Shown: piece after piece, positions 1,708 to 35,473 of the stretch
How the letters are laid out: the number at the start of each line of letters is the position of its first letter
Numbering within the stretch: position 1 is the stretch's first letter
Source: Naegleria gruberi
Taxonomy: Eukaryota
Reading direction: 5' to 3' (one strand)
DNA: 64,000 bases
Assembly (NCBI GenBank): GCA_000004985.1
Contig: GG738858.1
Made by a program: the position numbers and the translations under genes
The notes under the pieces: generated by a model
What the model was told of the DNA's origin: nothing
What the model saw: only the letters and a program-made list of their open reading frames with translations
The model's database searches: none

Positions 1708-3785
1708 ATGTCATCCTTTAAAAAGTCGTACGATATTATTATTGCAGGTAGGTTCTATTGTGTGTGCGTGATGGAGATAATCATGTAATATATATTGGTT
1801 GGTGATGATTGATCTTGTGATGGAAAAATTTGTGTGAAAATTTTATGTGAAATTTATGTGTGATGATCGGTGCAATTATTTGATCAAAAATTATTAAAAT
1901 ATTTGCATCAATAAAGGTGGAGGTCATAATGGACTTGCATGTGCTGCCAAGTTGAAGAAAACAATGCCATCATTATCAATTTGTGTTTTAGAAAAGAGAC
2001 ATGTGACTGGTGGATGTGCAATTTCTGAAGAAATGGAGCCAGGATTTAAATTTTCACGTGCTTCTTATTTATTTAGTTTGTTTAGACCACATATTATGGA
2101 TGACTTGGATTTGAGAAGAAGATTGAAATTACTTCCTAGAAATCCTTCTTCTTTTACTCCAACTTTGGAAAAAGATCAATATCTATTTATGGGAAGTGAT
2201 TCTGAAATGAATTTTAGAGAAATTTCTAAATTTTCAAAGAAGGATGCAAAGAATATGGAACTTTATGAAAAGCAATTGCAAAGAGTTGCAGGAGCTGTTG
2301 AGAAATTATTAGATTGTGGTCCAATTGACTTGGGTATTGATGAAGATGCAACCACAAGGGATATTCTTTTTGATAGAGAAAGTGGTATCATTGGTAACAA
2401 GGAAAATAGAGAAAGAATGAGGAAATTAGTTGAAGCTGGTCGTGAATTGGGTCTTTCCAATATTAACACTGCATTTGATGTTTTCACAAGTCCAGCAACT
2501 AAAATTTTGGATCACTGGTTTGAAAGTGACATTTTGAAAGCTACTCTTGCAACTGATGCTATTATTGGTGAATATTGCTCACCAAATACACCAGGTAGTT
2601 CCTATGTTTTGTTGCATCACGTTATGGGGTAAGTTTTCACGCAAAAATTGAGTTTTATTAATTGTTGAATGAAATATTTAATCAACATTTGTAGTGATAT
2701 TGGTTTTGGAAAGGGTATTTGGGCCTATGTTGAAGGAGGAATGGGTTCTGTCACTCGTCATTTGACTGATATCAATAAGGAGCTTGGTGTTGACGTGTTC
2801 ACAAATGCAAATATTAAACAATTCACATTCAACCATTCAAGCAAACGATGCACAGGTGTAGTCCTTGAAGATGGTACTGAAATCCTTGCCAACAAGGCTG
2901 TGGCCAGTAATTGTGATCCTCACACAACATTCAGAAAGGTAAGTCAACAACTCTTGTCAATTTGGAAATATTAATCATGACCCAATTTGAAAATCTCCAT
3001 TATTATGGTTGTTTTCTGTCAAATCAATCACACAGATGGTTACAGAATCGGATTTATTGGCAACATATGGAGAAGATTTTGCCAGGAAGGTCGATAATAT
3101 TGATTATTCTAGTGCCACATTCAAGATTAATCTTGCAGTTAATGCATTGCCACAGTTTAAATGTTTCTCCTCACCAAAGAGTGAAAGAAAGTCGAATGGA
3201 GCTGGTAAAGAACACTTTGGTACCATTCACTTTGAAACAAGTATTCAAGAGATTGAGGATTCATATATTCAAGCTAAATCCTCAAAATTATACTCCAGTA
3301 ATCCAGTTATTGAAATGACCATTCCTAGCAGTTTGGATAGTACTCTTGTTAAAGATCCAAATCATCATGTCATTCAGTTATTTACACAATATGCTCCATA
3401 TGATTTGAAGGAAGGTTTCACATGGGATGAAAAATTAAAGAGAGAATATGTCAATAAGGTTTATGATAAGATTGAAAGTTATGCTCCAGGTTTTAAGAAT
3501 TCAATTATTGCTGAAGATTTATTATCACCTCTCGATTTGGAAAAGACATTTGGAATTAAGGGAGGTAATATCTTCCATGGTTCCATTCGTTTGGATCAAT
3601 TGTATTTGAATAGACCTTTCAGAGGTTTCTCAAATTATCGTTACTTTAGTAAGAAACATGGTGTTGGTGTCAGTAACTTATTCTCATGCTCTTCTGGAAT
3701 GCATCCAGGTGGTGGTGTAATGGCTGGTCCTGGATATAACTGTGCTCATTCAATCATTTCTTCTCTCGCCAATTCTTCCCTCTAA
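1708..3785 (+). CDS. FAD-dependent oxidoreductase, PYROXD2 / phytoene-desaturase-like. Exons 1708..1747, 1917..2628, 2695..2938, 3036..3785.
   Basis: The spliced N-terminus MSSFKKSYDIIIAG|GGHNGLACAAKL gives a GxGxxG Rossmann dinucleotide-binding motif. The reading frame is continuous across gtaggt/gtaagt donors and ag acceptors, and the C-terminal exon (…GGGVMAGPGYN…) is in frame. The match to PYROXD2-type proteins is from memory. Confidence 0.65.
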
Positions 3786-13188: not shown

Positions 13189-14123
13189 ATGAAAATTTTG
13201 GCACGCGCACTTGTTGCCCTTCTCGTTTGCACCTTGTGGGTAAGCTCGACTTTGGCTGCCTCTTCTTGTTCAATTCAAACAACCGCTGGTAAAACCATTG
13301 AACTTTCCTCCGTTGATGTCGCTGGTACTGGTTATACTGTCGCTGGTACTGATGCTAACTGGAACTTTTACTTGTAAGTTTGTCTTTGTGTGTGGATAAA
13401 AAAATTAATAATAATAATATTTAATTGTGATGATGGCCATTATTTTGATAATTGTACACAAATAATAATATGATTGATGCGGATCTTTAATTTACGATGA
13501 TCTTCTTGTTTAGCAATATTTGTGGAGCTGTTACCAACCCAAGTACTGCTGTTTGTACTGTTGATGCTCAAGCATACCAATATGCCAAGCAATACAATCT
13601 CTGCTACCCAATAGGTCAAAAGGGTGTTCCAAAGATCTCTTTCCTCAACCCAGCCGATGAAAATGCTGGTGTTAAAGTTGTTCACGCTGGTATTCCTGCC
13701 ACTGATGGTGTTACCAGACAATTGGCTGTTTCCTTGACTTGTGACACTACTGCTGCTGATCGTCCAACTCTTACTTTCACTGGTGAAAGCAAGGAAGGTG
13801 GTATTATCACTTACGGATTCAGTGGTAAGACTAAGACTGCTTGTCCAGGTGCTGCTCCAGCTCCAACTCCAGAAGATGATTTGCCATTGGGTTGGTATGG
13901 TTTTGGTGGTCTCATCATGACTTTGGCTCTTGTTGCTTTCATTCTTTACTTCATCATTGGATTCCTTGTTTTGAAGTTCAAGATGCAAAAGACTGGTACT
14001 GAAGCTATTCCACAATTCGCCTTCTGGAAGGATTTGCCTTTCCTCTTCATTGATGGTGTTATGTTGCCAGTTGACCTCATCAAGGGTGCTATGGGTAAGA
14101 AGAATTACCAAGAAATGGCCTAA
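13189..14123 (+). CDS. Mannose-6-phosphate-receptor-homology (MRH) domain type I membrane protein. Exons 13189..13373 and 13514..14123.
   Basis: It has an N-terminal signal peptide (MKILARALVALLVCTLWVSSTLA). The MRH-like motif is SCSIQ…YTVAGTDANWNFYF|NICGAV (YxYxFxxCG pattern) with conserved Cys spacing. It has a single C-terminal TM helix (GLIMTLALVAFILYFIIGFLVL) and a short cytosolic tail. The intron has a gtaagt donor and tttag acceptor and keeps the frame. Confidence 0.55.
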
Positions 14124-14275: not shown

Positions 14276-14348
14276 GCCGACATAGCTCAGTTGGGAGAGC
14301 GTAAGACTGAAGATCTTAAGGTCCCTGGTTCGATCCCTGGTGTCGGCA
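14276..14348 (+). tRNA. tRNA-Phe (anticodon GAA)
   Basis: 73-nt cloverleaf. Acceptor stem GCCGACA/TGTCGGC. D arm GCTC-AGTTGGGA-GAGC. Anticodon stem TAAGA/TCTTA with loop CTGAAGA, giving GAA. T arm CCTGG-TTCGATC-CCTGG with one U51·U63 mismatch. Discriminator A, then a T-run (tttt at 14352..14355) as Pol III terminator. Confidence 0.85.
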
Positions 14349-16555: not shown

Positions 16556-17692
16556 ATGGGACAATCACAACCGAGCTACCCGCCACCACTTGCAACAAAA
16601 TGTTCCGAAAATGAAAGATTGGCTGTGATGCAAAAATTGGGAAATTTTGAGATGGCTCCAATTATGGAATTTAAATACTATTTTAATAGGAAATACAAGA
16701 ATAATTATCAACATTCGGATGAGAGTTTAGTTTTCAATGATGAGAATTGTTCGATATTTGAGAGGGAATTACCTGAAGAAGTGTTTATTCACATTTTGAA
16801 ATTTTTAAATCATCGAGAATTAATCAAAATGAGAAGAGTTTGTACAAACTATGAAAGTTATTGGATTCAAAATTCGAAAGTGTGGAATGTAAGATCGTTC
16901 GAAACTGAAAAGGATGAACCAAACATGTTGTTCAAACCAGTTTTGAATTCGCCCATTGAATCCATCTCTTTTTATTACAAACACTTTCTTCCAACCATTG
17001 TAAATTCATTTTACAGAGGCAACACAATTTCATATAGAGAAAGAATCAAAACTATTCTTTTAGGAAGTGAACGATGTGGAAAATCTGAATTAATGAAATT
17101 GGTTATTAACAATTATCAAGATTTTAATCCATTACTGGAATACTCTCCAACTGATGCCCATCTTTACACACCATTAGAAATTATTCCATTCAAGACCTCT
17201 TCTGAAAGAGGAGATTTGTTATTACAATTTTGGGATAGTTCAGGTAAAGAAAAGAGAATTCCCTTTCTCAAACCATTATTAAGGGAGACGAGAATTTATA
17301 CATTTTGTTTTGATTTGAGCGATGTGAAATCTTTCTTTGAAATGAAAAGTAGAATTGAAACTTTTCAAGTGGAATATTTAAATTCTAATTCATTGAATGA
17401 GGAATTAAAAGAAAGTGGAGCTTGCATGTTGGTGATTGGAATGAAGAGAGATTTGGAGAGGAAAGTGAGTAAACTTGAAATTACTAAATATTTGGAAGAA
17501 TTGAGCAAAGTTAAAGATGGAATCTCAATTAAGAGTTTAAGAATTCAATATTTCGAGTTGAGTAGCAAACAGGATTCAAAGAAAGTATTGGAATTTCCAT
17601 TTATTTATGGGTTGACCATGATTGAAGAGCATATTCCACCAGAAGAGACATTAGAAATGATGGCAGCACACTTTATGAAACCTGCAAAATAA
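16556..17692 (+). CDS. F-box-like domain fused to a divergent Ras/Rab-like small GTPase domain
   Basis: MGQSQPS N-terminus (myristoylation-like). The F-box-like motif is LPEEVFIHILKFLNHRELIKMRRVC. The GTPase motifs are G1 LLGSERCGKSELM, G3 FWDSSGKE (catalytic Gln replaced by Lys), G4 VIGMKRDL and G5 ELSSKQD. Confidence 0.55.
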   Translation: MGQSQPSYPPPLATKCSENERLAVMQKLGNFEMAPIMEFKYYFNRKYKNNYQHSDESLVFNDENCSIFERELPEEVFIHILKFLNHRELIKMRRVCTNYESYWIQNSKVWNVRSFETEKDEPNMLFKPVLNSPIESISFYYKHFLPTIVNSFYRGNTISYRERIKTILLGSERCGKSELMKLVINNYQDFNPLLEYSPTDAHLYTPLEIIPFKTSSERGDLLLQFWDSSGKEKRIPFLKPLLRETRIYTFCFDLSDVKSFFEMKSRIETFQVEYLNSNSLNEELKESGACMLVIGMKRDLERKVSKLEITKYLEELSKVKDGISIKSLRIQYFELSSKQDSKKVLEFPFIYGLTMIEEHIPPEETLEMMAAHFMKPAK

Positions 17693-17758
17693 TACTGTTG
17701 TAAATAAACTAACTTTTCACTTTCGAATAAAACAGATTGATGAAACTTGTCAAAAAAA

Positions 17759-19009
17759 ATGAATCCACATCAAAAACCGTCTACACTATCACCTCATAAT
17801 CAAGGAATACTTGTTGATGATATATTTTCCAATGACATTTGTTTTGAAATTTTATCATTTCTTGATTCTTGGTCAATTTTAAATTGTTCTTTAATTTCAA
17901 AACAATTTCGTCAAGTAATCAAGGAGGGAATAAAACTTTCTATTAATTTCCGACAAGAAGTTAACAGTGGAGGATTAGAAAAGCTTGGAAATAGTTCATT
18001 TATCGATAATATAATTTCATTGAAATTTGGAATAATTCCAAATCAATATAAGAAATTCTTTGATTGTTTGAGATTGATGCATCAATTGACCGATCTTTCA
18101 TTATCTAATTTTATATTTGCTACATATGCTGGTAAAAACAGTGAAATTACTGTTGAGCTAGCCAAATGCATCTGTCAATTGAAAAATTTAAAAAAACTTG
18201 ACGTTAGTTATAATTATCATCTTGAGAATGAAGTTGTTGAATTGATAAGTGAATTGAGAGAATTGAGAGAACTTAACATTAGATACTGTGATATTGGAGT
18301 AGAAGAGGTAAAATATCTCACTAAATTGGATAAATTGCATTCTCTGGATATTGGTATTAATCAAATATATGCAGACGGAGCTAAATTATTAAGTACAATG
18401 AAAAGTTTAACAAAGCTTGATGTGGCTGAGTGCGAAATTGGTGATGAGGGATGCCAGTCAATTACAGAGCTTTATCAATTGACTGATCTCAATATAAATG
18501 GTGATGGTATTGGTGTTGGGGGAGCTAACTGTATTGGTCAGATGAGGAATTTAAAAAGTCTCGATATTAGCAATAATTTCTTTGGAAATTATGGAGCAAA
18601 ATCAATAAGTGAGCTATCTCAATTAGAAATTCTTAATGTTTCATATAGTGACATTGATGAAGTGGGAGTTTATCAGTTACGCAAATTGAAAAATTTAACA
18701 TCTCTTTCCATTCATCATAATGAGATAACTGATGAAGGAACTAAATATATAGTAGAATTGGACCAATTAACTCATCTAGATATTAGCAACAATCAAATTG
18801 AAACAGAAGGAGCAAAATCTATTAGTGAAATGAGTCAATTAACCTCATTGAATATTAGTTCTAATATTATAGGTGACGAGGGAGCTCAATATATCAGTCA
18901 TTTAAAAAAACTAACATCACTAAATGTTAGCAAATGTAGAGTGAGTGAAGAAGGAGTTGAATCTATCAGAAAACAATTGAAACACTTGAAAACGCTTGAG
19001 GTAGAATAA
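17759..19009 (+). CDS. F-box / ribonuclease-inhibitor-type leucine-rich-repeat protein
   Basis: The N-terminal F-box-like motif is DICFEILSFLDSWSILNCSLISKQFRQVI. It is followed by at least 10 RI-like LRRs, for example LTSLDISNNQIETEGAKSISEMSQLTSLNISSNIIGDEGAQYISHLKKL. The real ATG is at 17759; the ORF track starts at TTG 17747. Confidence 0.6.
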   Translation: MNPHQKPSTLSPHNQGILVDDIFSNDICFEILSFLDSWSILNCSLISKQFRQVIKEGIKLSINFRQEVNSGGLEKLGNSSFIDNIISLKFGIIPNQYKKFFDCLRLMHQLTDLSLSNFIFATYAGKNSEITVELAKCICQLKNLKKLDVSYNYHLENEVVELISELRELRELNIRYCDIGVEEVKYLTKLDKLHSLDIGINQIYADGAKLLSTMKSLTKLDVAECEIGDEGCQSITELYQLTDLNINGDGIGVGGANCIGQMRNLKSLDISNNFFGNYGAKSISELSQLEILNVSYSDIDEVGVYQLRKLKNLTSLSIHHNEITDEGTKYIVELDQLTHLDISNNQIETEGAKSISEMSQLTSLNISSNIIGDEGAQYISHLKKLTSLNVSKCRVSEEGVESIRKQLKHLKTLEVE

Positions 19010-20794: not shown

Positions 20795-21195
20795 GGGTTT
20801 CTGTATTAAATTCATGTTTGAATTGTACCAGTAAATAAAATTATTAATTAAAGTTAATTTAAAATTTAAATTCAAAGATATTTTATAAAATAAATTATCT
20901 TGTTATTAAATCAATGTACGGTTTTCTTAGTCTTGATGAAAGGTTCCACGAAAGAAAACTGGCTCAGAAATCAATTAAGTCCATCAAGGAATAGAACATG
21001 TTCAATAGGTAAGAGCTAATCAATATTACAAAGGCTGTTATCACAAGAAATTAGTTCAATCATCACAGAATCACCACTCTCGCTAGATAGATTCACCATT
21101 CTTTTTGCCAAGACTGTGGATATTGTTATTAAGGCCATTGAATTTAAAAAAAATTACAATTTTTTGACAAACAATAATTTATTAAGATATATGGG

Positions 21196-24100
21196 TTAAT
21201 TAACTAGTCCTATCGGAACATAGCAAACCAAACCATAAATACCTCCATCAGGAGTAGTAGTAGCCCACCAACCATATGTTGGATAAGATCCCATAAAGTA
21301 AGCATAGGTAATACTATCACCAGATGCTGGATAATAACTACTGTACCAATCCTTATAGACAATGGTACTTCCATCGGACCAAGTTGTGAAGGAGCCTTGG
21401 GAAATTTCATGTCCCTTAGTACCTAAGAAGAAGGCATTGGTTTCATTCTTTGGAAGGAGATTGTTGGCTAAGAATGTCTTTTCTGTGGCACTTTGAATTT
21501 GGACCAATGAAGCGTTTGGATGGAAATACTTGCACAAACTACTCATTGATTCAACGGCATAATAGTTTTGAAGTTTGGTAAAGTAATAACATCTTCCCAA
21601 TGATGTACTACAGCTCATCTTTCTATACCATGGATAATCAACCATGTTGACCTTTGGAGGTAGAGTTGAAGGAGCAGTAATGATACCTGATGGACCTGTA
21701 ATTGTTCCTTGAGAATATTGAGAACCACCAGCAAGGCCAAATTTGATAATACCTTCTGGAATGTCTCCTGCAATCTTGAGTGTGTAAATCTTGTAGGAAC
21801 CTGGTGCAATAGTGTATGAGCTAGGCAATGACAAGTAGGTGAAACCAGTGAGTCCAGTAATTTGATCAGCACCAATGTAAACAGGGAAGCTTGGTGAATA
21901 ATCATGGAAGGCATCTTGGTTGTATCCTGCTTGTAATTCGAGAGTGAATCTAGTAAGTGCAGGTGATCCAGTAGCAACACTAATATTGTATGTGAAAACA
22001 GTAACTGGAGAGGAAGCGTTCAAGAATGTGGCAGTAGAAGAGGTCTTACCCAAATATTTAACAGAGTAACCACTGCTAGCTAATGGAACGAGTACATTGG
22101 TCTTGGATGTGTCAACAATATTACATGAGTTATCAATAATGGTTTGGTAAATGTTACTCAAATCGTTCCAATTTACCAAGACAAGATTATTTTGATCATA
22201 GTTCATCTTTTGTACTTGAATTTGACCATAACTATCCGTTACAGCAGAGCCTATTCCGATAGCAAGCTGTCTCCAATTCCAAACTGAGCCATAGAGTGAC
22301 ATTTCAGCATTATTAGAGCCACCAATTGACCAAGAGTTAATATCAACTGATCTAACAGTGGCATCAGAACATGGATTACAACGAGATCTATCATCATACC
22401 ACGAGCAAACAGTACAATCTGCGCCTGGGAAGCGAGGGCTCTTACAATAGGATGGGGAAACACCATAGTTTCCAGGATTTGATGAATAGGTTGATCTACA
22501 GCTACCACAAGAGCATGGGTCATTTGAGAGACCATCAGTAATGTGAATCAATAACTTTTGAGAAATTGACTTTCTACCAGAGGCCAACATCATATTAACT
22601 GCAGTATTAATACCTGAAATTGAGTTGGTACCAGATTGAATTTGGGCCATATTCTTGATGGCAGTTAAAACACTAGATTGACTTGTACCAGACTTCAAAT
22701 CCAAGTGAGTTGTAATAGTTGAGGCAAATTGAATAATACCAATGTTTGTTCCAGTTGGAGAGATGTTTGATCCAAAGCCTGTTGTCAAATTGGAAGCAAA
22801 GTTCTTCATGTTAACAAAGTTATCAGCTGTAATACTTCCAGAACCGTCAATAACAAATATGATATCCAAGTTAAGACCGCATTGACACTTGGTGTATTGA
22901 ACTGAGACAACAGCTGATGCTGAGGTACCATCTTGATCTGATTGGATACTGTAAACAAACTTTTGAGTATTACAACTTCCAGTAACTGGATAAACTCTGA
23001 TAATTCTATTGTTGGCAGGATCGGCTGGGTTGAGGATGGCTGGAGTGCCTGATGTACAATATGAGGAATCACCTGATGGACAAGAAATTCCAGTGAAAGT
23101 GAATGTACCACCAAGAGAATCATAGTCATTGCTCAACAAACTTGATACAGAGATATCAATATAGGTATTGAATTGTGTTGATACAAAGTCATTGACAGCA
23201 ACAGGAGGAGAAGCAAGAGCTGAAATTCCAACTTGAACATTCTTAGTAATTGGATTTCTTGCATCAGAATCAGAAACAGCTAAAACAAAGTTACAACTTC
23301 CAAGGAATGTTGCTACTCTCAAAAACTTGACTTGATTGCTGGCAATTGTCAAGGATTGAAGAACGGTGCTATTACAAGTTCCAACATCTGCAATACTCTT
23401 CAAAACTAGAGTGTCTGCAGTGTCGGCATCCTTTGAAGATGAGAGAGAAATATAATCAAATGAAATATAATTATTACTAGCTCTAGAAATTGAATAGACA
23501 TAAGTGTAAGCATTCAAGGTTGGAGCTTGATTAGGTTGAGCAATAATAATCTTACAAATGGCAGTTTGTCCAGCAGTGTTTGTCAAAGAATAGGAAGCAT
23601 AACAATCACTATTTGATGATGAGGTACTTGCTGGAGTGTATGTCAATTTACCAGTAGAGGATGAGATGGAACCAACACCATTAAGAGTAGCAGTGTTAGT
23701 GATAGCCATTGTGACTGGTTCAGAACCAACCTTTGCTGTTAAACTTGTCTTTAAAGCATCTTCAAATTGAGTAGCAGCAGAATTCTTTGTAGTGGAAATT
23801 GTGTAATCAAGACATCCGAAAGAATTACCAGTGATTGTAACAGTGTAAGTGTAGGTTGAAGTTAATTGACCATCAGTCAAGGTGAAAGAGAATTGCAAAG
23901 TTCCCAAATAAGTAGTAGCATAAGTAAGCTTTACAGATCCATCAGAGTTCAACAAGACAGAGGCACCAGTGTTTTGAGTAATCATACTAACACTTGAAAC
24001 AGTAACTGTATCACCATCAGCATCACTTGCACCTGTCAATAGATCAGTGAAAGTATAAGTTGGATTGGAATAACTTCTTTCAATGGTGGTAGTCTTTGCA

Positions 24101-27100
24101 CTTCCAGTTGGAGGTGTATTTCTAATGACTACAGACATGGTAGCATAAGTTGCAACTTGAGCACCATCATAACAACTAAACTTAATGGAGTCTGTAACAT
24201 ATCGTGTTCCATTAGAAAGAGTGGTTGTGTAAGAAATTGAGGAGCTTGGTGTGTAAACAAGAGATCCAGTAGTGTAATCCGAAACAGTTGTTGTACCATA
24301 TGAACCTTGACCAACTCCAAACAAAGACAATGAATCGCTATCAGCATCATAACAGTATTGAGAAACAACATTTGTCAAAGACAAAGTGTTCTTCCAACCA
24401 ATAGTTTTAGAGAATGAAGTAGCTTGAGGAGCAGTATTGGTAAAAACAAGGTTAACAGTGGCAATATTAGAGGTGGCAATTTGATCAGTAATGGTGTATT
24501 GGAATGAATCAGTACCTGGACCATTAATGAAGGTATTCATATAGAAAACAGTTACCAAATCACTTTGTAAAACAAGGGCGGTATTACCTGTTGGCAATTG
24601 AGCACTACCAAAGTTAACATTATTCAAATTCAAAGAATTAGAACCCAAACTCATGATAACACCATACATGTTAACAACATTGAAGTTAAGTTGACCATAG
24701 GTAAGGACATGTCCATAGAATGTACCTTGAATACCTGCAGCGCCAACAATCCAGAAAACGTTCAAGTAACTAGCACCATTCTTGAAACTCCAACTAAAGT
24801 TAGCATTCAAATTTGTGGTGGCAACAAAGATAAAAAGACCACTTCCACTCAATTCAATTTTACCATTTCCATTGAGACCTTGAGAGAAACAATATACACC
24901 TGGAGTAAATGACAAAACACCTGAAGATGGGAAGTTTTGATCAAGAGAGGCAACACAAGACTTTTGTGAAAGATATTGGTAGAGATTTGAGGCAGATGTA
25001 ACAACAGATGAGTAGGCAGCGTTGTTGACACTCAAAGTACCAGTTGGTTTAAGAGCTTGAGCAGTGAAACCAGCAGTGGCAACGCTTCCAGGAACAACCA
25101 AATTGGCAAAGTTATTACAAATGGTTGAACCCTTAGAAATAACAATGTAATCTCCGATACCATTGTATGAACTGACTAAGCTTGATGGATATAACTTGTT
25201 AATATAAATATAATCACCATCAACATCATAATCGTTCAAAACAGGTTTCAAATACAAGGTATTATTGGTCCAGTGTTGAGTGAATGTATTATCAACAGCA
25301 ACAGGAGGAGTATTAGTAATGGTAATGGTAACAGTATTGGTAACACTTGAGAAACCATCAGTTACAACATAGGTGAATGAAGTAGTGAACCCAGCAGTTA
25401 GAGGAACTGGTGTGTACTTGACAAAAGTGGAATTAACAGAAGCAACAGCACCAGTATTTGGTTGAGTGAATGAAACAATGGTCAATGAATCACCATCAGC
25501 ATCAGTAACTCCAGACATCAAATCAATACTGAGGCCACTTTGAACCTTAGCCCAGTGACGACTGAATGTTAATGGAGTTGCTGTAGGAGCGCTATTGGAA
25601 ATAGTAACAAAGATTCCCTTTGATGCAGAAACTCCCATTCCATCAGTTACAGTATAGTTGAAGAATTGTGATGCAGAGTTTCCATTAGAATTGGTGAATG
25701 TGAATGATTTCTTGTCACCACTCAAAGCAACAGTACCTGCACTTGGATTAGTGAATGATGAAATAACAAGATAGTCTCCATCCTCAGTATCAGCATCAGT
25801 TGGCTTGAGAGAATCAGCTCTACCAATAACTGGAATAGAAATTGAGGAAGTGTGACCAGATACAACAATATCTTTAGCAACTGGAAGATTGTTATAGATA
25901 ACAATGCTGAATGTTGCACTTGAAGTGGACCACCCATCAGTGAATGAAACAGTAACGGAATCAGTACCAGTGTAAGCACTATTGACCTTATAGTTAATGG
26001 TGTTTCCTGAACCAAGAGAAGCAACACCAACCAGTGTCTTTGTGACAGCAGTTAAGGTAACAGCATCACCATCAGCATCCTTAAGATAGGAAGAAAGATC
26101 AATAACAGTATTACTCAAAACAGTTCTCCAGTGATATTTGAAAGCTGCAGTAGTATTGGCTGTTGGAACACTATTCAAAATTGTAATGGAAACAGTACCA
26201 GTGACTGTATCTCTTCCATCAGTGATAATATAACTGATTGGGTTGATACTACCAACAAAACCACTGGAAGGAGTGAATTTTACATTTCCAGAGCAAGTGA
26301 CACTACCTTGAGCTGCAGTAACAGATGAAGAGCATGATTGTAATGATAATGAATCTCCATTAGCATCTGAAGAAGCAGAAACAACTTCAAATGTTAAACC
26401 ATTCTTAGCTGAAGACCAAGAACCGACAAATGATTGTGAATTTGTTGTTGGAGCAGTATTGGTAACAGTAACAGTAACAGTTGATGTTGAAGTGGCAATC
26501 TCATCAGTGATTGTATAGTATACAGTATCTGTAGATGGAGCAGTTCTTGGATAGTAAGTAATGTTGGTTGAGGTAAATGTTGGTGACAAAGGAGCTAATG
26601 AACCATAAACATTAGTAACTCTCAATGGATCAGACTCAGCATCAGTATCGTTAGCAACAACATTCAAAGTGTAAGAAGCAACGTTCCAGTGAGTAGTGAG
26701 CTTATCTGGAACAGCTACTGGGGCAGTATTGTAAACAATCAAGTTGACAGTTGTGGTAACTTGACCGTTTGAAGCACCATCAGTAACAATGTACTTGAAT
26801 GAAAGTGAACCCACAAAGTTTCCAGAACCAAGGATTTTGACAGACTTGCTATCCAAAACAGTTACGGAACCAACACTTGGTTGAGAAGCAATTGAAACCA
26901 AACTCAATGAGTCGCCATCAGTATCATAATCAGCTGGAGCATAATTTAAGATATCAATTTCAATACCTGCCTTGAAAGTTCTCCATGGAACTGAAATAGT
27001 CTTGGTTTGAGAAGTTGGAGCGTTGTTTACAACAGTTACAGAGATTGAACTAGTTGAGCTCTTCATAGAGTCAGAAACTCTGTAGTTAGCAGTGTAAACA

Positions 27101-30100
27101 CCAACAGTGTTGGATGCAGTGAATGTGGCAATATTTGAAGAAACAGACAATGATCCCTTACTTGGTTGAGTATCTGCTGAGAAGGACAAGTTATTGACAT
27201 CCAATGGATCAGCATCAGAAGTGTAACTAGTCAAGTTGAAAGCAACACTTTGTCCGAAATGGACTGTACCTGTAATTGCTTGAGCTGTTGGGGCAGTATC
27301 ATAAACAGTCATGGTGAAGACAATGTAACTATTACCACTGCTTGTGTAATATTTCAATGTAAATTGTTCATTACCCAAATAGGATCCAGAAGGTTTATAG
27401 GTAACAGTCTTCAAATCAGAAGAAACACTTACTATACCCCCGTGGTTTGGATCAGATAATGGTGTTTGATCGAGAGTTGTACCAGTCTCTGAAAGCTTAT
27501 CGAGAGGTAAGAATACATATCCAACACTTGAGTATCTGAAATGAACATTGTAGTATTGTTCAGTACTGGATGGAGAAGTTGATGTAATGTTAATCTTCAA
27601 GTAACCAATTGATGTAGTCAATCCATCACTAATGGTATATGGAACAGTGTCAACACCCAATGACTTGACTAAGCTTGGGTCAGGGAAATAGACAATTTTA
27701 CCGTCAGATGGTTGGGCAGCACCACTGCCAAACATGCTTGAAGAACCTACATTCTCAATCTTCAAATATGGAACATCTTGAATGTCAGAATCAGTTGCTA
27801 AAGAAATAACGTCAATAGTGATACCATATTGAATGTTACCACCAGAGTAGGTCAAGGTAAGATTGGCAGCAACTGGAGCATTATTGTAAGAGTTTGTGGT
27901 CAATGTGGCAGAAGATGACTCAAAACCATCTGAGAGAATAACCTTACAAGCATCACTTGATGCAAATGCACTTCTCAAATATTTAACACCCTTGATTCCA
28001 TTTCCTAAATCAACAAGGGAGCAATAAGAGCTGGAACCAGTGTTGAATGAGAGTGAATAATAATCACCATCAGCATCTGTGAGAGTATTGTAAACAGTGT
28101 AAGAAACTCCATTTGTTTGAACAGTTCTCCAATGAGCAGATGTAGATTGATCACTGATAGATGGCTTATTAGTATTGACAATGTTGACTGTAACAGTGGA
28201 AGCTGAGGAGTAGAGAGCTCCATCATATGCCTTGTAAGTGAATGTCTTGGCTCCAAGGGTTGGTGGATTCTTCAATGTATATCTGAGTAAATTATTTACA
28301 ATGCTTAATGATCCTTCACTAACAGATGATGGGTTAGTAACAGTGAGGGCATCATTATCAGCATCAATATCATTAGACAAGACATTAATATCAACGAATG
28401 AAGTATTCCATTGGACAGTAACAGTATCACTATTTGCAACTGGTGCGTTATCAGTACAGTTGACTGTAACAGTGTTGCTTGCGGTTTCAATACCATCAGT
28501 GATTCTGTAAGTGAAAGAGTAAACTCCAATAGAAGCACTTGATTGTTTGTAAACCAACTTGGATGAAACAACAGAGGCAGATCCTTGTGATGGAGCTGAA
28601 ACAATTGGTGTGGTATCAAATGCCAAACTGTCACCATCAGAGTCCGAACATTCACTCAAAATGTCAATGGAAATACCAGAAACACAAGTGGACCACTTGG
28701 ATACAATATTCTTTGAAACTGCTGTTGGAGCGTAATTTTGAATAGTAACAGGATAGGAGGCAGTCTTACTGATCCAACCATCTGTGTAAGAAATGGTCAA
28801 TTGAGAAGCTCCTAACTTGACAGTTTTTGGAAGATTCCAAACAATAACCTTATCAGAATTAATAGTTGGAGTACCATAAGAGCTGTCATATGCAGAAATT
28901 GAGAAAGATACAGAATCACCATCACTATCGGAAATACTTGAAGAAATATCAATAAGAGATTGATTCTTGGTCCAGTGAATACTTGTTGGGAATGGTGTGG
29001 CAATTGGAGCGGAATTTTGTACATCGATATTCCATTTGGCAACACTATTCAATAAGCCATCAGTAAAAGTAACAGTTACAACACATACACCAGTACTTCC
29101 TGCTGCACTAGTGAAAGTAACAGTGGAGGTGGTGTAGGAAACAGAACCACAACTAGAAGTTGAGGCTCCCTTAACAACAACTGTATCTTCAGAGTCAGAA
29201 TCAGTGACGTTGAACCAAGCAATAGCATTCTTAGTATATCCATTGCTTACATCAGTAAAATGTCTTGTTTCAGAGATATCATTTGAAACTGGAGCGTTAT
29301 CATAAACTATAACATTGACAGTGACAATAGAAAAGCTTGAACCATCAGTGATTTGAACCTTGAATGAATCACTTCCCAAGTATCCAGCATTTTGCTTGTA
29401 AATAACGTTTGGAATTGTAGTAGCATCACCATTTGAGATTGTAATACTACCGTGTGCTGGAGCTTGATCTGGAGTGGTAACAATTGACAATGAATCACCA
29501 TCGTTATCAACAGGTTGAGCAATACTGAAAATGTTAATTACAGAACCAGTGGATTGAGTGCTCCAGTGAACAGTCTTTGAGATGGTCTTATCTTGTGGCT
29601 TGTCATTATTTGTAACAGTAATAGAAACAGAAGCAATATTACTTGTTGAAGGACCATCAGTACAAGTGTATGTAAAGTTTTGAACTCCCAAACCAGAAGA
29701 ACTTGGAGTGAAGGAAACAAATGACTTGGATGAATCCAAAACCAAATTACCAGCAAATCCAGAAGAAGTAGTGAATGATTTGATAGCGATTGGATCAGTG
29801 TCAGCATCAACATCATTGGTAAGGAGATTTAATTGCTTGTTGGAAATTCTCCAATGCATTGTATATGAATCGTCATTGGCAACTGGTGCAGTATTAGTAA
29901 CTTCAACATTGACACTACCAACAGTTGATTTACCATAATCAGAAACAACATAAGTGAATGAATCAGTACCAACAAAGTTATTGGCCTCGATAGAAGTATA
30001 GACCAAACCATCAGTTCCATCACCAAGTGTAACACGAGAGACTGAACCCTTAGAACCTTGAGTGAATGAAGCAATATGGAGTGAATCACCATCAGCATCT

Positions 30101-32550
30101 GTACATGATGTTAATACAGGAATGTTAACAGATGATGAACGCCAATGAGTACGAGCAGTGACATCACCAGCAACTGGAGCAGTATTAGAAACAGAAACAG
30201 TTACAGTGGCAGATGAAACAGAAACATCCATACCATCTGTACAAGTGTAAGTGAAGGTATCATTACCAACGAATCCATTACTTGGAACGTAGAGAATGGA
30301 CTTTCCACCTTGATAAATTGAAACAGTAGCACCATTATTGGAAGTATAGGAAACAGAGTTAACAGTGAGAGAATCACCATTGATATCCTTGTCATTATCG
30401 AGAACATTGATAACAACACTTCTATTCCATGAAACAGTTGCTAAATCATCAACTGGAACAGGAGCATCATTGACAACATGAACAGTGACAACAGCCTTAT
30501 TGGAAACTAATTTTTCAACATCAGCAACATCAAATTCGACATAGTCAACATAAACTGAAGACAAAGCAGTATAATTAGCATAATCATTACCAGGTGTGAA
30601 ACTAATAGACAATCCATACGTGCTTTGAGAAAAACTATTATAAGTAATCTTATCACCATTTGGATCATAACTGTTCAAGATTGGATTAATAGAAGAAGTT
30701 AAACCCTTTGAAACTGTAAAGCTTGAAGCAACAGCAACAGGAGCAGTATTAACAACCTTAATAATTACATATCCAGTACGATTGAATGTGCCTTCAGTGC
30801 TTCCATCGGCATTGGTATTAATGACAATGTATGAAGCAACATCTTCACCTGTGAAATCATGAGCTGGTTCATAAAGGGTATTGTTATCGTCTAGTCTGGT
30901 AATTTTACCTCCATTCAAAGTGGTAGCAGAGACAAAATTAAGCTTCAAGACATCACCAGATTGACTGTAATCATTGCTGATAACATCGACAGTGACTTGT
31001 CCATTCTTTTGACAAGTTGCTGTATCATTGACTGGAATAGGAGGAGAAGGAACTACATTGATAGTAATAGTGGCAAGTACAGAATCAACACCATCACTAA
31101 CTTTGACTTTGAAGGATTCAGAGTAGACAACACCTTGCTCTGGAGTGTAAAGAAGAGTATAGGCATTGCTATTAACTTGATAAAAGTCACCACTTGGATA
31201 GTAAACGCTTTTAACAGAAGTAACAACAGACAAGGAGGAAGAACCACGAGTCAATTTGGTAGTTGGAGTCAACGTAACAGTATCCAAGATATCTTCATCA
31301 GAGAAAGTCAAATCAATGAGATTATTCTTTGAATTCTTTGGAACATCAATAGTCAAATCCTTTGCAGAAGGAGGCAAGTTGACTATTTTGATAAAAACAA
31401 ATGAAGAGCTTGTGAGTGCTCCATCTGTAATAGTGTATTCGAAAGCATCACTGGCAGGAGTTGAAATGAATGGCTTTGGAATATATTGCAAGAAAGCACC
31501 TTGAGCACCAACAAGAACAGTACCAGTAGAACCGAGACCAGTAGAACCTGAAACAATTGTAATATTATCACCATTGATATCATAATCGTTTGACAAGACA
31601 CTCAAAGTTGCCATGGTATTCTTATTAACAGTATAGGAATCTGGCTCAGCAGTTGGGGCATCATTTGCAACAATAATCTTGAGAGTAGCTGTTACATTGG
31701 AATAACCATCTGATACAGTATAGTTAAGCTGCTCTTCATTATTAAAGCCATAAGCAGGAGTATAATAAACAAACAATTCATCAAATGAAATGGAACTTCC
31801 CTCAGAAACAGAACCACCCAATGAAGTAATAAAAAGTGTATCTCCATCTACATCAGAAGTCATTCCTCCATTTTCAGTAACAAAGTTGAAAACATCAAAA
31901 TTATTATTCTTTGAATTCTTATTGACTGTATATTGCAAATCAACAACATCTGGAGCACGATTCAAAACTTGGACATGGATTTTTGCTGTGGCAACAGTCC
32001 ATGAATTGGTGATGGTATATTCTAATGTATCATTTCCTGCAAAACTTCCACTTGATGTGTAAACAATTGTATTCTTGGCAGATAACACAGCTTTACCATG
32101 AGCAGGTTGAGTAATATTGAGAATTGTTAAATTTGAAGATCTAGTATCATAATCATTAGAAAGTGGATAGAAATTTGAAGGCACTTTCTTATAAACTTGA
32201 TAATAATCATCCACAGCAACAGGATTGTAAACTGTTGCATTCAAAGTTACCATCAAGATGGTAGCAACAACACTGGCAACAACAAGACTTGAAATAACAG
32301 CACCTATAACAGTTTGACTAATAGTGCCTCCCTATTGAAGAAGATGAAAGGATTCACAAACATGATATTCGAAACAATGTTAAAAATTACAGAAACATGA
32401 AGAACCATCATGGAACATTATATTTCCATCAATACGCATTAGCAAAGGCTATTCGAAACTAAGTATCCTACAAACCTTCAAGAGGGAAATATTGGCTGTA
32501 AAGCCTGTACGAGACACAGTTGAAGAACCCAACACAGTACCTGCAGGCAT
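21196..32550 (-). CDS. Giant (about 3,711 aa) predicted type II membrane adhesin-like protein. It has an N-terminal cytosolic tail plus signal-anchor TM, about 25-30 tandem cadherin-like/bacterial-Ig-like repeats, an embedded DUF3494 ice-binding-like beta-helix, a VWA domain and a C-terminal C-type lectin domain. Exon 1 is 32476..32550, intron 32332..32475, exon 2 is 21196..32331.
   Basis: An uninterrupted 11 kb ORF. Exon 1 (MPAGTVLGSSTVSRTGFTANISLLK, gtttgt donor) splices to GGTISQTVIGAVISSLVVASVVATILMV (TM) in frame. The repeats follow the pattern VxNxAPVA..D..T.HW…ID(V/I)L.ND.D.DGD.L.I… and end …Y.VTDG…S…V.V.V. The DUF3494-like segment runs PGVYCF…LFIFVATTNL…NGASYLNVFWIVGAAGIQGT…GHVLTYGQL, at about 24560..25160. 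The VWA/MIDAS motif is DIIFVIDGSGSI…HITDGLSND, at about 22480..22900. The CTLD runs CYYF…WSDGS…WY…C at 21196..~21640. Confidence 0.8.
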
Positions 32551-35402: not shown

Positions 35403-35473
35403 GCATTAGTAGTGTAACGGTATCATACCAGCCTTCCAAGCTGGTGACCCGGGTTCGACTCCCGGCTAATGCA
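35403..35473 (+). tRNA. tRNA-Gly (anticodon UCC)
   Basis: 71-nt cloverleaf. Acceptor GCATTAG/CTAATGC. Anticodon arm CCAGC-CTTCCAA-GCTGG, giving TCC. T arm CCCGG-GTTCGAC-TCCCGG, discriminator A. Closely parallels eukaryotic tRNA-Gly-TCC. Confidence 0.85.

What the first reader, a model, noticed from the sequence alone, without database searches (positions are those of the whole stretch)
21196..32550. Giant eukaryotic type II membrane protein built like a bacterial mega-adhesin
A single 11.1-kb exon plus a 75-nt 5' exon encodes about 3,711 aa. It has a short cytosolic N-terminus and one signal-anchor TM helix, then roughly 25-30 diverged ~95-100-aa beta-sandwich repeats of the NDxDxDGD 'bacterial cadherin-like / VCBS / Big' type. 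A DUF3494 ice-binding-like beta-helix follows, then further repeats, a VWA (MIDAS DxSGS) domain and a C-terminal C-type lectin domain. CTLD and VWA are classically metazoan/eukaryotic extracellular modules. The NDxDxDGD repeats and DUF3494 are hallmarks of bacterial RTX-type giant adhesins. The combination in one eukaryotic protein is unusual. It suggests a surface adhesin or substrate/prey-recognition system, possibly assembled with horizontally acquired modules.
Basis: partly seen in the sequence, partly recalled or inferred. Interest (0 to 1): 0.85.

Follow-up and report, generated by a model that had tools for sequence, protein, structure and literature searches.

The report
Giant adhesin-like Naegleria surface protein
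This is a real 3,736-residue membrane-anchored gene of a Naegleria-like amoeba, laid out like a giant bacterial adhesin (long repeat stalk, binding modules at the far end); it belongs to an uncharacterised family already present in all sequenced Naegleria genomes, so it is interesting but not unique.

Summary
On the minus strand, a 75-nt exon (32550-32476), a 144-nt GT..AG intron and an 11,136-nt exon (32331-21196) encode 3,736 aa (395 kDa).

Layout, from the N-terminus:
- a conserved 31-aa tail and the protein's only hydrophobic helix;
- 30 bacterial-type "tandem-95"/Big_9/cadherin-like repeats;
- a DUF3494 ice-binding-like beta-helix nested inside split repeat 25;
- a VWA domain with a complete MIDAS and a Cys-rich insert;
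- an unclassified beta-sandwich;
- a non-canonical C-type lectin-like domain.

The neighbouring genes, and codon usage matching theirs, show a native gene of a Naegleria-like heterolobosean.

It is not unique. Its collinear orthologue is N. gruberi NAEGRDRAFT_72752. A paralogue without the beta-helix is NAEGRDRAFT_79811. Both sit in core orthogroup OG0000435 of the 2023 Naegleria pangenome, which also has N. fowleri and N. lovaniensis members and is tabulated there as a Cochlin-like "particle recognition/phagocytic receptor".

Most likely function: a type II-anchored fibrillar adhesin or particle receptor, analogous to bacterial RTX adhesins but not a member of that family. Function, topology, ice binding and horizontal origin remain untested.

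Verdict: new member of a known, uncharacterised family. Interest 0.45.

The parts
32476..32550 (-). Exon 1 (75 nt): MPAGTVLGSSTVSRTGFTANISLLK, the start of the conserved cytosolic tail.
   Evidence: ATG preceded by in-frame stops. The frame hits a stop 8 codons past the donor unless spliced. The peptide is conserved in N. gruberi P0149 and P0150.
32332..32475 (-). Intron, 144 nt, GTTTGT...AATAG.
   Evidence: Sequence reading. In-frame join verified. The junction peptide SLLK|GGTISQ is present in annotated orthologues. No RNA evidence.
21196..32331 (-). Exon 2 (11,136 nt including the stop at 21196-21198), encoding aa 26-3736.
32245..32313 (-). Single transmembrane / signal-anchor helix, aa 32-54.
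   Evidence: This is the only stretch where a 19-residue Kyte-Doolittle window exceeds 1.6 (peak 2.54). The N-flank has 2 K/R and no D/E; the C-flank has 2 K/R and 3 D/E. Conserved in P0149 and P0150.
25324..32226 (-). Stalk: repeats 1-24 (aa 61-2361), ~96 aa each, tandem-95 / Big_9 / bacterial cadherin-like beta-sandwiches.
   Evidence: Pfam, self-built HMM, NCBIfam NF012211 at 436 bits, PDB 'RTX protein' E 2e-4.
25189..25308 (-). N-terminal half of split repeat 25 (aa 2367-2406).
   Evidence: Matches repeat HMM positions 1-~40. Joined to the C-half it gives one full-length hit of 86.4 bits.
24604..25188 (-). DUF3494 ice-binding-like beta-helix plus linkers (aa 2407-2601), nested in repeat 25.
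   Evidence: PF11999 33.5 bits vs cut-off 28.7. PDB ice-binding proteins E 2.5e-6. AF2 core pLDDT >90. The 31 best Foldseek PDB hits are all DUF3494-type ice-binding proteins, target TM-score up to 0.77.
24448..24603 (-). C-terminal half of split repeat 25 (aa 2602-2653).
   Evidence: Matches repeat HMM positions ~37-88.
22900..24432 (-). Repeats 26-30 (aa 2659-3169). One of them (aa ~2867-2953) is degenerate.
22099..22887 (-). VWA domain (aa 3174-3436) with MIDAS residues DGSGS..T..D. A ~75-aa insert carrying 8 Cys (aa ~3297-3375; window 22282-22518) lies between the ITDG strand and the AIGIG strand.
   Evidence: Pfam VWA 7e-26. PDB collagen VI, PTMP1 and integrin I domains, with alignments. 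Cys positions.
21637..22098 (-). Unclassified beta-sandwich domain (aa 3437-3590).
21199..21636 (-). C-terminal C-type lectin-like domain (aa 3591-3736), non-canonical.
   Evidence: Lectin_C 24.0 bits vs cut-off 22.6. PDB CTLDs E 6e-7 to 1e-4. Only 4 Cys, and no EPN/QPD or WND motif, in all three family members.

Best explanation
The gene encodes a ~395-kDa single-pass surface protein of a Naegleria-like amoeba that works as a fibrillar adhesin or particle-recognition receptor.

Proposed anatomy and mechanism:
- A short conserved N-terminal tail stays in the cytosol, and one signal-anchor helix holds the protein in the plasma membrane (type II orientation).
- Thirty tandem ~96-aa beta-sandwich repeats, many keeping the acidic Dx[DN]GD motif, form a probably Ca2+-stiffened stalk. 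At ~5 nm per repeat, by analogy with MpIBP, it would reach about 0.13-0.15 um.
- The stalk displays binding modules far from the cell surface. A DUF3494 beta-helix projects sideways from split repeat 25. At the tip sit a MIDAS-containing VWA domain (metal-dependent binding of acidic ligand residues), an Ig-like beta-sandwich and a lectin-like CTLD.
- Likely ligands are substratum, bacterial prey or other particles.

Shown: the gene model is coherent, the domain identities and their order hold, the host is eukaryotic, the family is conserved across Naegleria, and the beta-helix is nested in a repeat.

Inferred: topology, Ca2+ rigidity, stalk length, ligands and the biological role.
For: - Architecture.
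- Single hydrophobic helix with a weak positive-inside bias, and a conserved N-terminal tail.
- DUF3494 fold.
- Complete MIDAS, with metazoan-type VWA domains as best matches.
- CTLD.
- Native eukaryotic gene. Neighbours include F-box/LRR, Alg9, Bud13, CFAP97, SAP30 and a DEAH helicase. GC3 is 0.255, within the neighbours' range of 0.20-0.31, and RSCU correlates at r=0.85. The Alg9 neighbour is 70% identical to N. lovaniensis and 62% to Willaertia magna.
- Purifying conservation. The collinear orthologue P0149 (NAEGRDRAFT_72752) is 46-80% identical per module. The paralogue P0150 has the same N-terminus and the same VWA-sandwich-CTLD tail.
- Literature. RTX adhesins use extender repeats, split domains that project ligand-binding domains, and a vWFA domain with a mid-domain insert (PMC12077191; PMC5550230).
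- The Naegleria pangenome tabulates this orthogroup as core, under 'particle recognition/phagocytic receptors' (PMC9928731 supplement).
Against: - There is no expression, localisation or binding data for any family member. The N. gruberi identifiers appear in no searchable paper.
- Topology was not run through a dedicated predictor. The charge bias is small (+2 on the N-flank, -1 on the C-flank).
- The CTLD lacks canonical Ca2+/sugar residues, so lectin activity is doubtful.
- The AF2 model gave low confidence for the two half-repeats. The split-domain geometry therefore rests on profile scores only.
- The pangenome label was assigned from a Cochlin best hit, not from an experiment.
Confidence: 0.6

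Rival explanations
1. It is an ice adhesin. The DUF3494 domain really binds ice, and the stalk tethers the amoeba or cyst to ice, or controls ice recrystallisation at the cell surface in freezing soil or water. This would parallel MpIBP or Shewanella SfIBP_1.
For: The domain passes the Pfam cut-off. Its only PDB relatives by sequence and by fold are ice-binding proteins, including the SfIBP_1 DUF3494 domain 6bg8. SfIBP_1 likewise combines DUF3494 with tandem beta-sandwich domains (Vance et al. 2018, listed in PMC11645318).
Against: Identity to proven ice binders is only 12-24%. The same divergent domain sits in N. gruberi proteins of unrelated architecture: PhoPQ-related + IBD, and EGF + IBD + REJ. 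That suggests a general binding module. The N. gruberi paralogue P0150 lacks it altogether. Non-ice-binding DUF3494 proteins are recognised (PMC11645318). Naegleria as a mainly mesophilic or thermotolerant genus is my own knowledge, not tested here.
Confidence: 0.08
2. It is a structural or self-adhesive surface-coat, extracellular-matrix or cyst-wall component, or a cell-cell adhesion protein, rather than a receptor for prey or substratum.
For: The VWA is closest to matrix proteins: vitrin, collagen VI and mussel PTMP1. The pangenome best hit is Cochlin. The protein is very S/T/N-rich with 38 N-glycosylation sequons and an acidic pI of 4.5.
Against: The membrane anchor and the distal placement of several different binding modules fit a reach-out adhesin better than a matrix polymer. 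No oligomerisation module was detected.
Confidence: 0.17
3. The hydrophobic segment is a cleaved signal peptide, so the product is a secreted giant protein, not membrane-anchored.
For: There is only one hydrophobic segment, and it is near the N-terminus.
Against: It starts after a conserved 31-residue tail and spans about 23 residues. That is long and late for a signal peptide by general knowledge of signal-peptide architecture. The tail and helix are conserved in both N. gruberi relatives. No predictor was run.
Confidence: 0.1
4. It is an artefact: bacterial contamination, an assembly chimera or a pseudogene.
For: A 5-kb ENA metagenome contig (L001) is 99.7% identical to window 20937-23458. 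It then switches to unrelated eukaryotic genes at a point inside the gene.
Against: The window's frame is unbroken for 11.1 kb. The repeat spanning that junction is intact and collinear with the N. gruberi orthologue. Codon usage matches the neighbours, and the flanking genes are eukaryotic. L001, a short-read contig, is the likelier chimera.
Confidence: 0.02

Closest known systems
Naegleria gruberi NAEGRDRAFT_72752 (XP_002672240.1 / EFC39496.1, 'predicted protein') and paralogue NAEGRDRAFT_79811 (EFC44248.1); pangenome orthogroup OG0000435
   Same: Same N-terminal tail and TM helix. Collinear repeats, a nested DUF3494 domain (70% identity), and VWA (64%), beta-sandwich (61%) and CTLD (46%) modules. 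The orthogroup is 'core' and includes N. fowleri and N. lovaniensis members.
   Different: The deposited 72752 model has 2,816 aa. It lacks counterparts of repeats 9-10 and 18-22, and only the C-terminal ~40 aa of repeat 23 find a match. This may be true repeat-number variation or a gene-model or assembly artefact. 79811 lacks the DUF3494 domain. None has been characterised.
Bacterial RTX (type I-secreted) giant adhesins: MpIBP, AhLap, FrhA, LapA
   Same: A cell-proximal anchor at the N-terminus and a long tandem Ig-like extender. Ligand-binding domains sit near the C-terminus, one budding from a split extender domain. There is a vWFA domain with a mid-domain insert plus a lectin-like module. 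The repeat type is the bacterial 'tandem-95', and the best PDB match is an 'RTX protein'.
   Different: The host is eukaryotic. The anchor is a transmembrane helix, not an outer-membrane retention plug. There are no RTX GGxGxD nonapeptides and no T1SS signal. The beta-helix is DUF3494, not an RTX-type ice-binding solenoid. The tip is a CTLD.
Shewanella frigidimarina SfIBP_1 (DUF3494 plus tandem beta-sandwich domains)
   Same: It combines a DUF3494 domain with tandem beta-sandwich repeats. Its DUF3494 structure 6bg8 is a significant fold match (rank 28).
   Different: It is bacterial and much smaller. Nesting inside a repeat and VWA or CTLD modules are not known for it (from the literature title and my own knowledge; not tested here).
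Dictyostelium Sib (Similar to Integrin Beta) adhesion receptors (my own knowledge; partly echoed in PMC9928731)
   Same: Amoebal surface adhesion and phagocytosis receptors that combine a VWA domain with bacterial-type extracellular repeats and one TM helix.
   Different: Sib proteins are type I, with a C-terminal talin-binding tail, and are far smaller. They have no DUF3494 or CTLD. No sequence relationship was tested here.
Metazoan VWA matrix proteins (vitrin, cochlin, collagen VI) and integrin I domains
   Same: They are the best sequence matches of the VWA domain (32-35% identity to bird vitrin; PDB collagen VI and integrin alpha I). The MIDAS is conserved.
   Different: Only the ~120-residue N-terminal half of the VWA aligns well. 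The rest of the protein is unrelated.

Membership tests
Naegleria orthogroup OG0000435 (NAEGRDRAFT_72752-like giant proteins) | Collinear module order with significant identity along the whole length. | tested here: met
   Per-module BLASTP against P0149: N-terminus 58%, matching repeats 58-79%, IBD 70%, VWA 64%, sandwich 61%, CTLD 46%, all in the same order.
Naegleria orthogroup OG0000435 (NAEGRDRAFT_72752-like giant proteins) | Conserved N-terminal tail (MP..STV.RT.F..N.SLLKG.TI.QT) followed by a single TM helix. | tested here: met
Bacterial RTX adhesins | Long tandem Ig-like extender region. | tested here: met
   30 repeats: Big_9 / Cadherin_4 / tandem-95.
Bacterial RTX adhesins | Ligand-binding domain projecting from a split extender domain. 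| tested here: met
   Deleting aa 2407-2601 restores one full-length repeat hit of 86.4 bits. The halves alone score 51.6 and 35.7 bits. The same holds in the orthologue. This is sequence-level only; the model's flanks had low confidence.
Bacterial RTX adhesins | C-terminal RTX nonapeptide (GGxGxD) beta-roll and a T1SS signal. | tested here: not met
   No GG.G.[DN] motif anywhere in the protein. No RTX calcium-binding repeat family among the Pfam hits. The C-terminus is a CTLD.
Bacterial RTX adhesins | N-terminal outer-membrane retention module in a Gram-negative bacterium. | tested here: not met
   The N-terminus is a 31-aa tail plus a TM helix. The host genome is eukaryotic.
DUF3494 / ice-binding-like (PF11999) | Profile match above the curated cut-off. 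| tested here: met
   33.5 bits vs 28.7 when the domain is scanned alone. It was missed when the whole protein was scanned.
DUF3494 / ice-binding-like (PF11999) | Beta-helix with a long flanking alpha-helix. | tested here: met
   AF2 core pLDDT >90, with a helix at model residues 104-121. The 31 best Foldseek PDB hits are all DUF3494-type ice-binding proteins.
DUF3494 / ice-binding-like (PF11999) | Ice-binding activity. | not testable with these tools
   Needs recombinant protein and ice-affinity or thermal-hysteresis assays.
VWA domain with MIDAS | Profile match, and DxSxS..T..D metal-site residues. | tested here: met
   VWA 7e-26. DGSGS, the T of SGTNS and the D of ITDG align to the corresponding positions of collagen VI and PTMP1 VWA domains.
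C-type lectin (Lectin_C, PF00059) | Profile match above the cut-off and PDB CTLD matches. | tested here: met
   24.0 bits vs 22.6, which is marginal. All 43 PDB matches listed up to E=10 are CTLD proteins, 12 of them at E<0.01.
C-type lectin (Lectin_C, PF00059) | Canonical Cys framework (C1-C4 and C2-C3 disulfides). | tested here: not met
   Only C0, C0', C1 and C4 are present. The C2 and C3 positions are non-Cys in the window protein, P0149 and P0150 (read from the alignments).
C-type lectin (Lectin_C, PF00059) | Ca2+/carbohydrate site motifs EPN or QPD, plus WND. | tested here: not met
   The aligned positions read YPA and WAT.
Classical (metazoan) cadherins | PF00028 cadherin repeats and a catenin-binding cytoplasmic tail. 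| tested here: not met
   Only the bacterial cadherin-like families hit (Cadherin_4, Cadherin_5, and Cadherin_3 weakly). There is no PF00028 hit, and the only cytosolic part is a 31-aa N-terminal tail.

The most novel reading that the evidence does not exclude
Naegleria would have domesticated the whole bacterial fibrillar/RTX-adhesin blueprint. That blueprint is a tandem-95 stalk, a split-domain-presented DUF3494 module and a vWFA domain with an insert. The lineage would have re-anchored it with a eukaryotic type II signal-anchor and capped it with a CTLD, to serve as its main long-reach receptor for bacterial prey or substratum. The N. fowleri orthologue would then contribute to host-cell or ECM attachment. 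This would be a case of a eukaryote adopting a bacterial adhesin design, by transfer or by convergence, with a non-ice role for DUF3494.
Probability: 0.25. Interest if true: 0.7.

Novelty: new member of a known kind. Interest (0 to 1): 0.45.

Why it matters
Adhesion and particle recognition are poorly understood in heteroloboseans, including the brain-eating N. fowleri. This orthogroup is core to the genus and is one of only two C-type-lectin genes the pangenome study counts in the Naegleria core genome. It offers a concrete, testable candidate receptor.

It also shows that the extender + split-domain + distal-ligand-binder layout described for bacterial RTX adhesins exists in a eukaryote with a different anchor. 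In addition, a divergent DUF3494 domain is reused in several Naegleria surface proteins, which is relevant to what DUF3494 does outside ice binding.

The window's uninterrupted 3,736-aa model also suggests that the deposited N. gruberi model (2,816 aa) may be incomplete.

Tried and rejected
Searches and models that led nowhere:
- The whole-protein homology search timed out.
- The word-index search with the DUF3494 domain alone found nothing. Its relatives appeared only in the exhaustive search.
- To save capped searches I queried two artificial concatenations. IBD+sandwich+CTLD worked. Alg9+N-terminus identified the taxon, but the repeat hits were swamped by Alg9 hits.
- Exact look-ups of the Alg9 neighbour and of P0149 found no contig. 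Synteny and intron conservation at the DNA level could therefore not be checked.
- The metagenome scan with the N-terminal 425 aa found only distant (22-37% identity) giant-ORF loci of mixed GC content, and no close orthologue.
- Cluster look-ups gave no taxon names for the nearest non-Naegleria DUF3494 relatives. The horizontal-transfer question stayed open.
- The AF2 model did not resolve the half-repeats flanking the beta-helix.
- The afdb50 fold library was unavailable.
- The beta-sandwich domain got only generic Ig-like/CBM-like matches.
- Literature searches for the N. gruberi identifiers, for Naegleria+DUF3494 and for PRJEB11402 returned nothing.

Readings considered and rejected:
- Bacterial contaminant or chimera.
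- Classical cadherin.
- True RTX adhesin membership.

Full report
**1. Is it there?**

Yes. The minus strand holds the only giant ORF in the window, 21196..32256 (3,686 aa from the first TTG). Translation shows the frame stays open up to window 32331.

The ATG at 32550 is preceded by in-frame stops. It opens a 75-nt exon (MPAGTVLGSSTVSRTGFTANISLLK) that runs into a stop unless spliced. A GTTTGT...AATAG intron of 144 nt (32475-32332) joins it in frame to GGTISQTVIG....

The spliced product is 3,736 aa, 395 kDa, pI 4.5. At this base composition about one random codon in 15 is a stop (my estimate), so the frame cannot be chance.

There is no RNA evidence. However, two annotated Naegleria gruberi proteins start with the same peptide across the proposed junction.

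**2. Whose genome?**

A eukaryote. Neighbouring ORFs encode the following:
- F-box/LRR and F-box/Ras-like proteins, and a 13-repeat DUF4116 protein;
- Alg9 mannosyltransferase and an arginine methyltransferase;
- Bud13, SAP30 and a DEAH helicase;
- CFAP97, RGS, C2 and CLC proteins.

The Alg9 neighbour is 70% identical to N. lovaniensis and 62% to Willaertia magna. That query was an artificial Alg9+N-terminus concatenation used to save a capped search. No window protein that I looked up is deposited verbatim, and the giant gene's N. gruberi orthologue is only 46-80% identical per module. The source is therefore a Naegleria-like heterolobosean distinct from the annotated strains.

The giant gene's GC3 (0.255) lies within its neighbours' range (0.20-0.31), and its codon usage correlates with theirs (r=0.85). 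It is a native gene, not a contaminant or a recent import.

**3. Anatomy** (spliced coordinates)

- **aa 1-31: tail.** Conserved, with two basic and no acidic residues.
- **aa 32-54: hydrophobic helix.** This is the only hydrophobic segment in the protein (Kyte-Doolittle peak 2.54).
- **aa 61-3169: repeats.**
  - A self-built HMM finds 31 hits with a mean period of 96 aa.
  - Pfam calls them Big_9 (4e-199), Cadherin_4 and Cadherin_5.
  - NCBIfam calls them 'tandem-95 repeat' (436 bits).
  - The only PDB sequence match is a bacterial 'RTX protein'.
  - The full NDxDxDGD motif occurs 3 times. Its core Dx[DN]GD occurs in 15 repeats, against 0.13 expected.
- **aa ~2407-2601: DUF3494 domain.**
  - PF11999 scores 33.5 bits against a cut-off of 28.7 when the domain is scanned alone.
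  - All ten PDB sequence hits listed up to E=10 are DUF3494-type ice-binding proteins; the best is E 2.5e-6 and nine are below 0.01.
  - The AF2 core has pLDDT >90 with the characteristic long helix.
  - The 31 best Foldseek PDB hits are all DUF3494-type ice-binding proteins, with target TM-score up to 0.77.
- **aa 3174-3436: VWA.** E 7e-26, with DGSGS..T..D all present. A ~75-aa insert with 8 Cys lies between the ITDG and AIGIG strands.
- **aa 3437-3590: unclassified domain.**
  - It has no Pfam family.
  - It is modelled as a beta-sandwich (pLDDT 80.7).
  - It has weak bacterial relatives, some of them next to SdrD_B domains.
- **aa 3591-3736: C-type lectin-like domain.**
  - Lectin_C scores 24.0 bits against a cut-off of 22.6.
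  - PDB CTLDs match at E 6e-7 to 1e-4.
  - It keeps C0, C0', C1 and C4. It lacks the C2-C3 cysteines and the EPN/QPD and WND motifs, consistently in all three family members.

**4.

'Repeat 25' matches only the first ~40 HMM positions. The fragment after the beta-helix matches positions ~37-88. Deleting aa 2407-2601 and joining the two gives one full-length hit of 86.4 bits. Only one natural repeat scores higher (96.1 bits). The halves alone score 51.6 and 35.7 bits. The N. gruberi orthologue behaves the same way (72 bits).

So there are 30 repeats: 29 intact and one split.

One caveat: the HMM included these rows among its 31. A second: the AF2 model gave low confidence for the half-repeats. 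The geometry is therefore inferred from sequence only.

**5. Relatives**

- The word-index search of the VWA-to-CTLD tail found only the window's own sequence in an ENA metagenome contig, one 55%-identical JGI fragment, and then bird vitrin VWA domains.
- The exhaustive search found the real family:
  - N. gruberi NAEGRDRAFT_72752 (2,816 aa);
  - NAEGRDRAFT_79811 (2,366 aa);
  - two other N. gruberi proteins that reuse the same divergent DUF3494 domain: PhoPQ-related + IBD, and EGF + IBD + REJ/PKD.
- 72752 is collinear module by module, including the nested beta-helix. It lacks counterparts of repeats 9-10 and 18-22, and only the last ~40 aa of repeat 23 match.
- 79811 has the same N-terminus and tail but no beta-helix.
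- The Naegleria pangenome paper (PMC9928731) places EFC39496.1 and EFC44248.1 in orthogroup OG0000435.
  - The orthogroup also contains N. fowleri members (e.g. KAF0977272.1) and N. lovaniensis members.
  - It is tabulated as 'core', with best hit Cochlin and InterPro 'C-type lectin-like'.
  - Its category is 'particle recognition/phagocytic receptors'.
- No paper discusses these proteins further.

**6. How it most likely works**

The layout is an N-terminal anchor, a long stalk of acidic-motif beta-sandwiches, a side-projecting module from a split repeat, and several different binding modules at the far end. This is the layout established for bacterial RTX adhesins.

In those adhesins, extender repeats give reach (about 5 nm each in MpIBP; PMC5550230). 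Split domains project ligand-binding domains away from the axis. A vWFA domain can carry a mid-domain insert (PMC12077191).

By analogy, I propose a type II-anchored fibrillar adhesin or particle receptor reaching ~0.13-0.15 um. Binding would go through the VWA MIDAS, the beta-helix face, the sandwich and the lectin-like tip.

This is 'works like', not 'is a member of'. The protein has no RTX nonapeptides, no T1SS signal and no outer-membrane retention module.

Rivals, with my confidence in each:
- true ice adhesin, 0.08;
- matrix or cyst-wall component, 0.17;
- secreted after signal-peptide cleavage, 0.10;
- artefact, 0.02.

**7. The chimera question**

ENA contig L001 matches window 20937-23458 at 99.7%. 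It then switches to unrelated eukaryotic genes at a point inside repeat 29 of the final 30-repeat numbering (R30). The window is continuous in frame there and collinear with the orthologue. The short-read contig is therefore the likelier chimera, or it is a rearranged copy in that population.

**8. Horizontal origin**

This is not shown. The repeat and DUF3494 families are predominantly bacterial (family names, and my own knowledge). The metagenome scan found only 22-37%-identical giant ORFs on contigs of varied GC content. The nearest non-Naegleria DUF3494 relatives are unnamed environmental sequences and a Chlamydomonas ICE-MDV ice-binding protein. The gene is fully ameliorated to the host. 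Any transfer would be ancient and predate the Naegleria radiation.

**9. Verdict**

The functional reading is plausible but untested. The uniqueness claim is overstated. This is a new member of a conserved, uncharacterised Naegleria family that resembles bacterial fibrillar adhesins. Interest 0.45.

Noticed in passing
window 20937-23458 vs locus L001 (ENA ERZ929261, contig k127_207918): A 5-kb metagenome contig is 99.7% identical to the 3' end of the gene. At window ~23458 it switches to unrelated eukaryotic genes: an uncharacterised 333-aa ORF and a DUF4495 protein. It is either a chimeric short-read contig or a rearranged copy in that population.
   Followed up: partly
P0151/P0214 (NAEGRDRAFT_49989) and P0152 (NAEGRDRAFT_61915), found: The same divergent DUF3494 domain (43-51% identical to the window's) is reused in other N. 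gruberi secreted or surface architectures: PhoPQ-related + IBD, and EGF + IBD + REJ/PKD. This looks like a Naegleria-specific expansion of a non-canonical DUF3494 module.
   Followed up: partly
window 21637-22098 (aa 3437-3590): A ~150-aa beta-sandwich domain with no Pfam family. Its weak relatives are N-terminal domains of bacterial hypothetical proteins (a Thermoanaerobaculia MAG; others next to SdrD_B domains) that share a TTFTY...LxxFxLEL...IGxDPxTG...GDVxEG pattern. It may be an undescribed domain family.
   Followed up: partly
P0149 (NAEGRDRAFT_72752) vs window aa 840-1032 and 1705-2265: The deposited N. gruberi orthologue lacks counterparts of repeats 9-10 and 18-22, and only the last ~40 aa of repeat 23 match. 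The window gene is one uninterrupted exon. The N. gruberi model may have mis-predicted introns or collapsed repeats, or the repeat number really varies.
   Followed up: no
window 59789-61654 (+): A 621-aa ORF consisting largely of 13 DUF4116 repeats (Pfam 2e-153).
   Followed up: no
window 16556-17692 (+) and 17747-19009 (+): Two adjacent F-box genes: one fused to a Ras/Arf/Roc-like GTPase domain, the other to leucine-rich repeats.
   Followed up: no
window 14276-14348 (+) and 35403-35473 (+): tRNA-Phe(GAA) and tRNA-Gly(TCC) genes lie between the protein-coding genes.
   Followed up: no
window 13440-14123, both strands: Two overlapping ORFs of >200 aa on opposite strands (13440-14111 on the minus strand, 13497-14123 on the plus strand). 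I did not examine which one, if either, is coding.
   Followed up: no
whole protein (window 21196-32256) vs the isolated domain: The Pfam scan of the whole 3,686-aa ORF did not report Ice_binding or Lectin_C, although both pass their curated cut-offs when the domains are scanned alone. Weak domains in giant repeat proteins are easily missed in routine annotation.
   Followed up: yes
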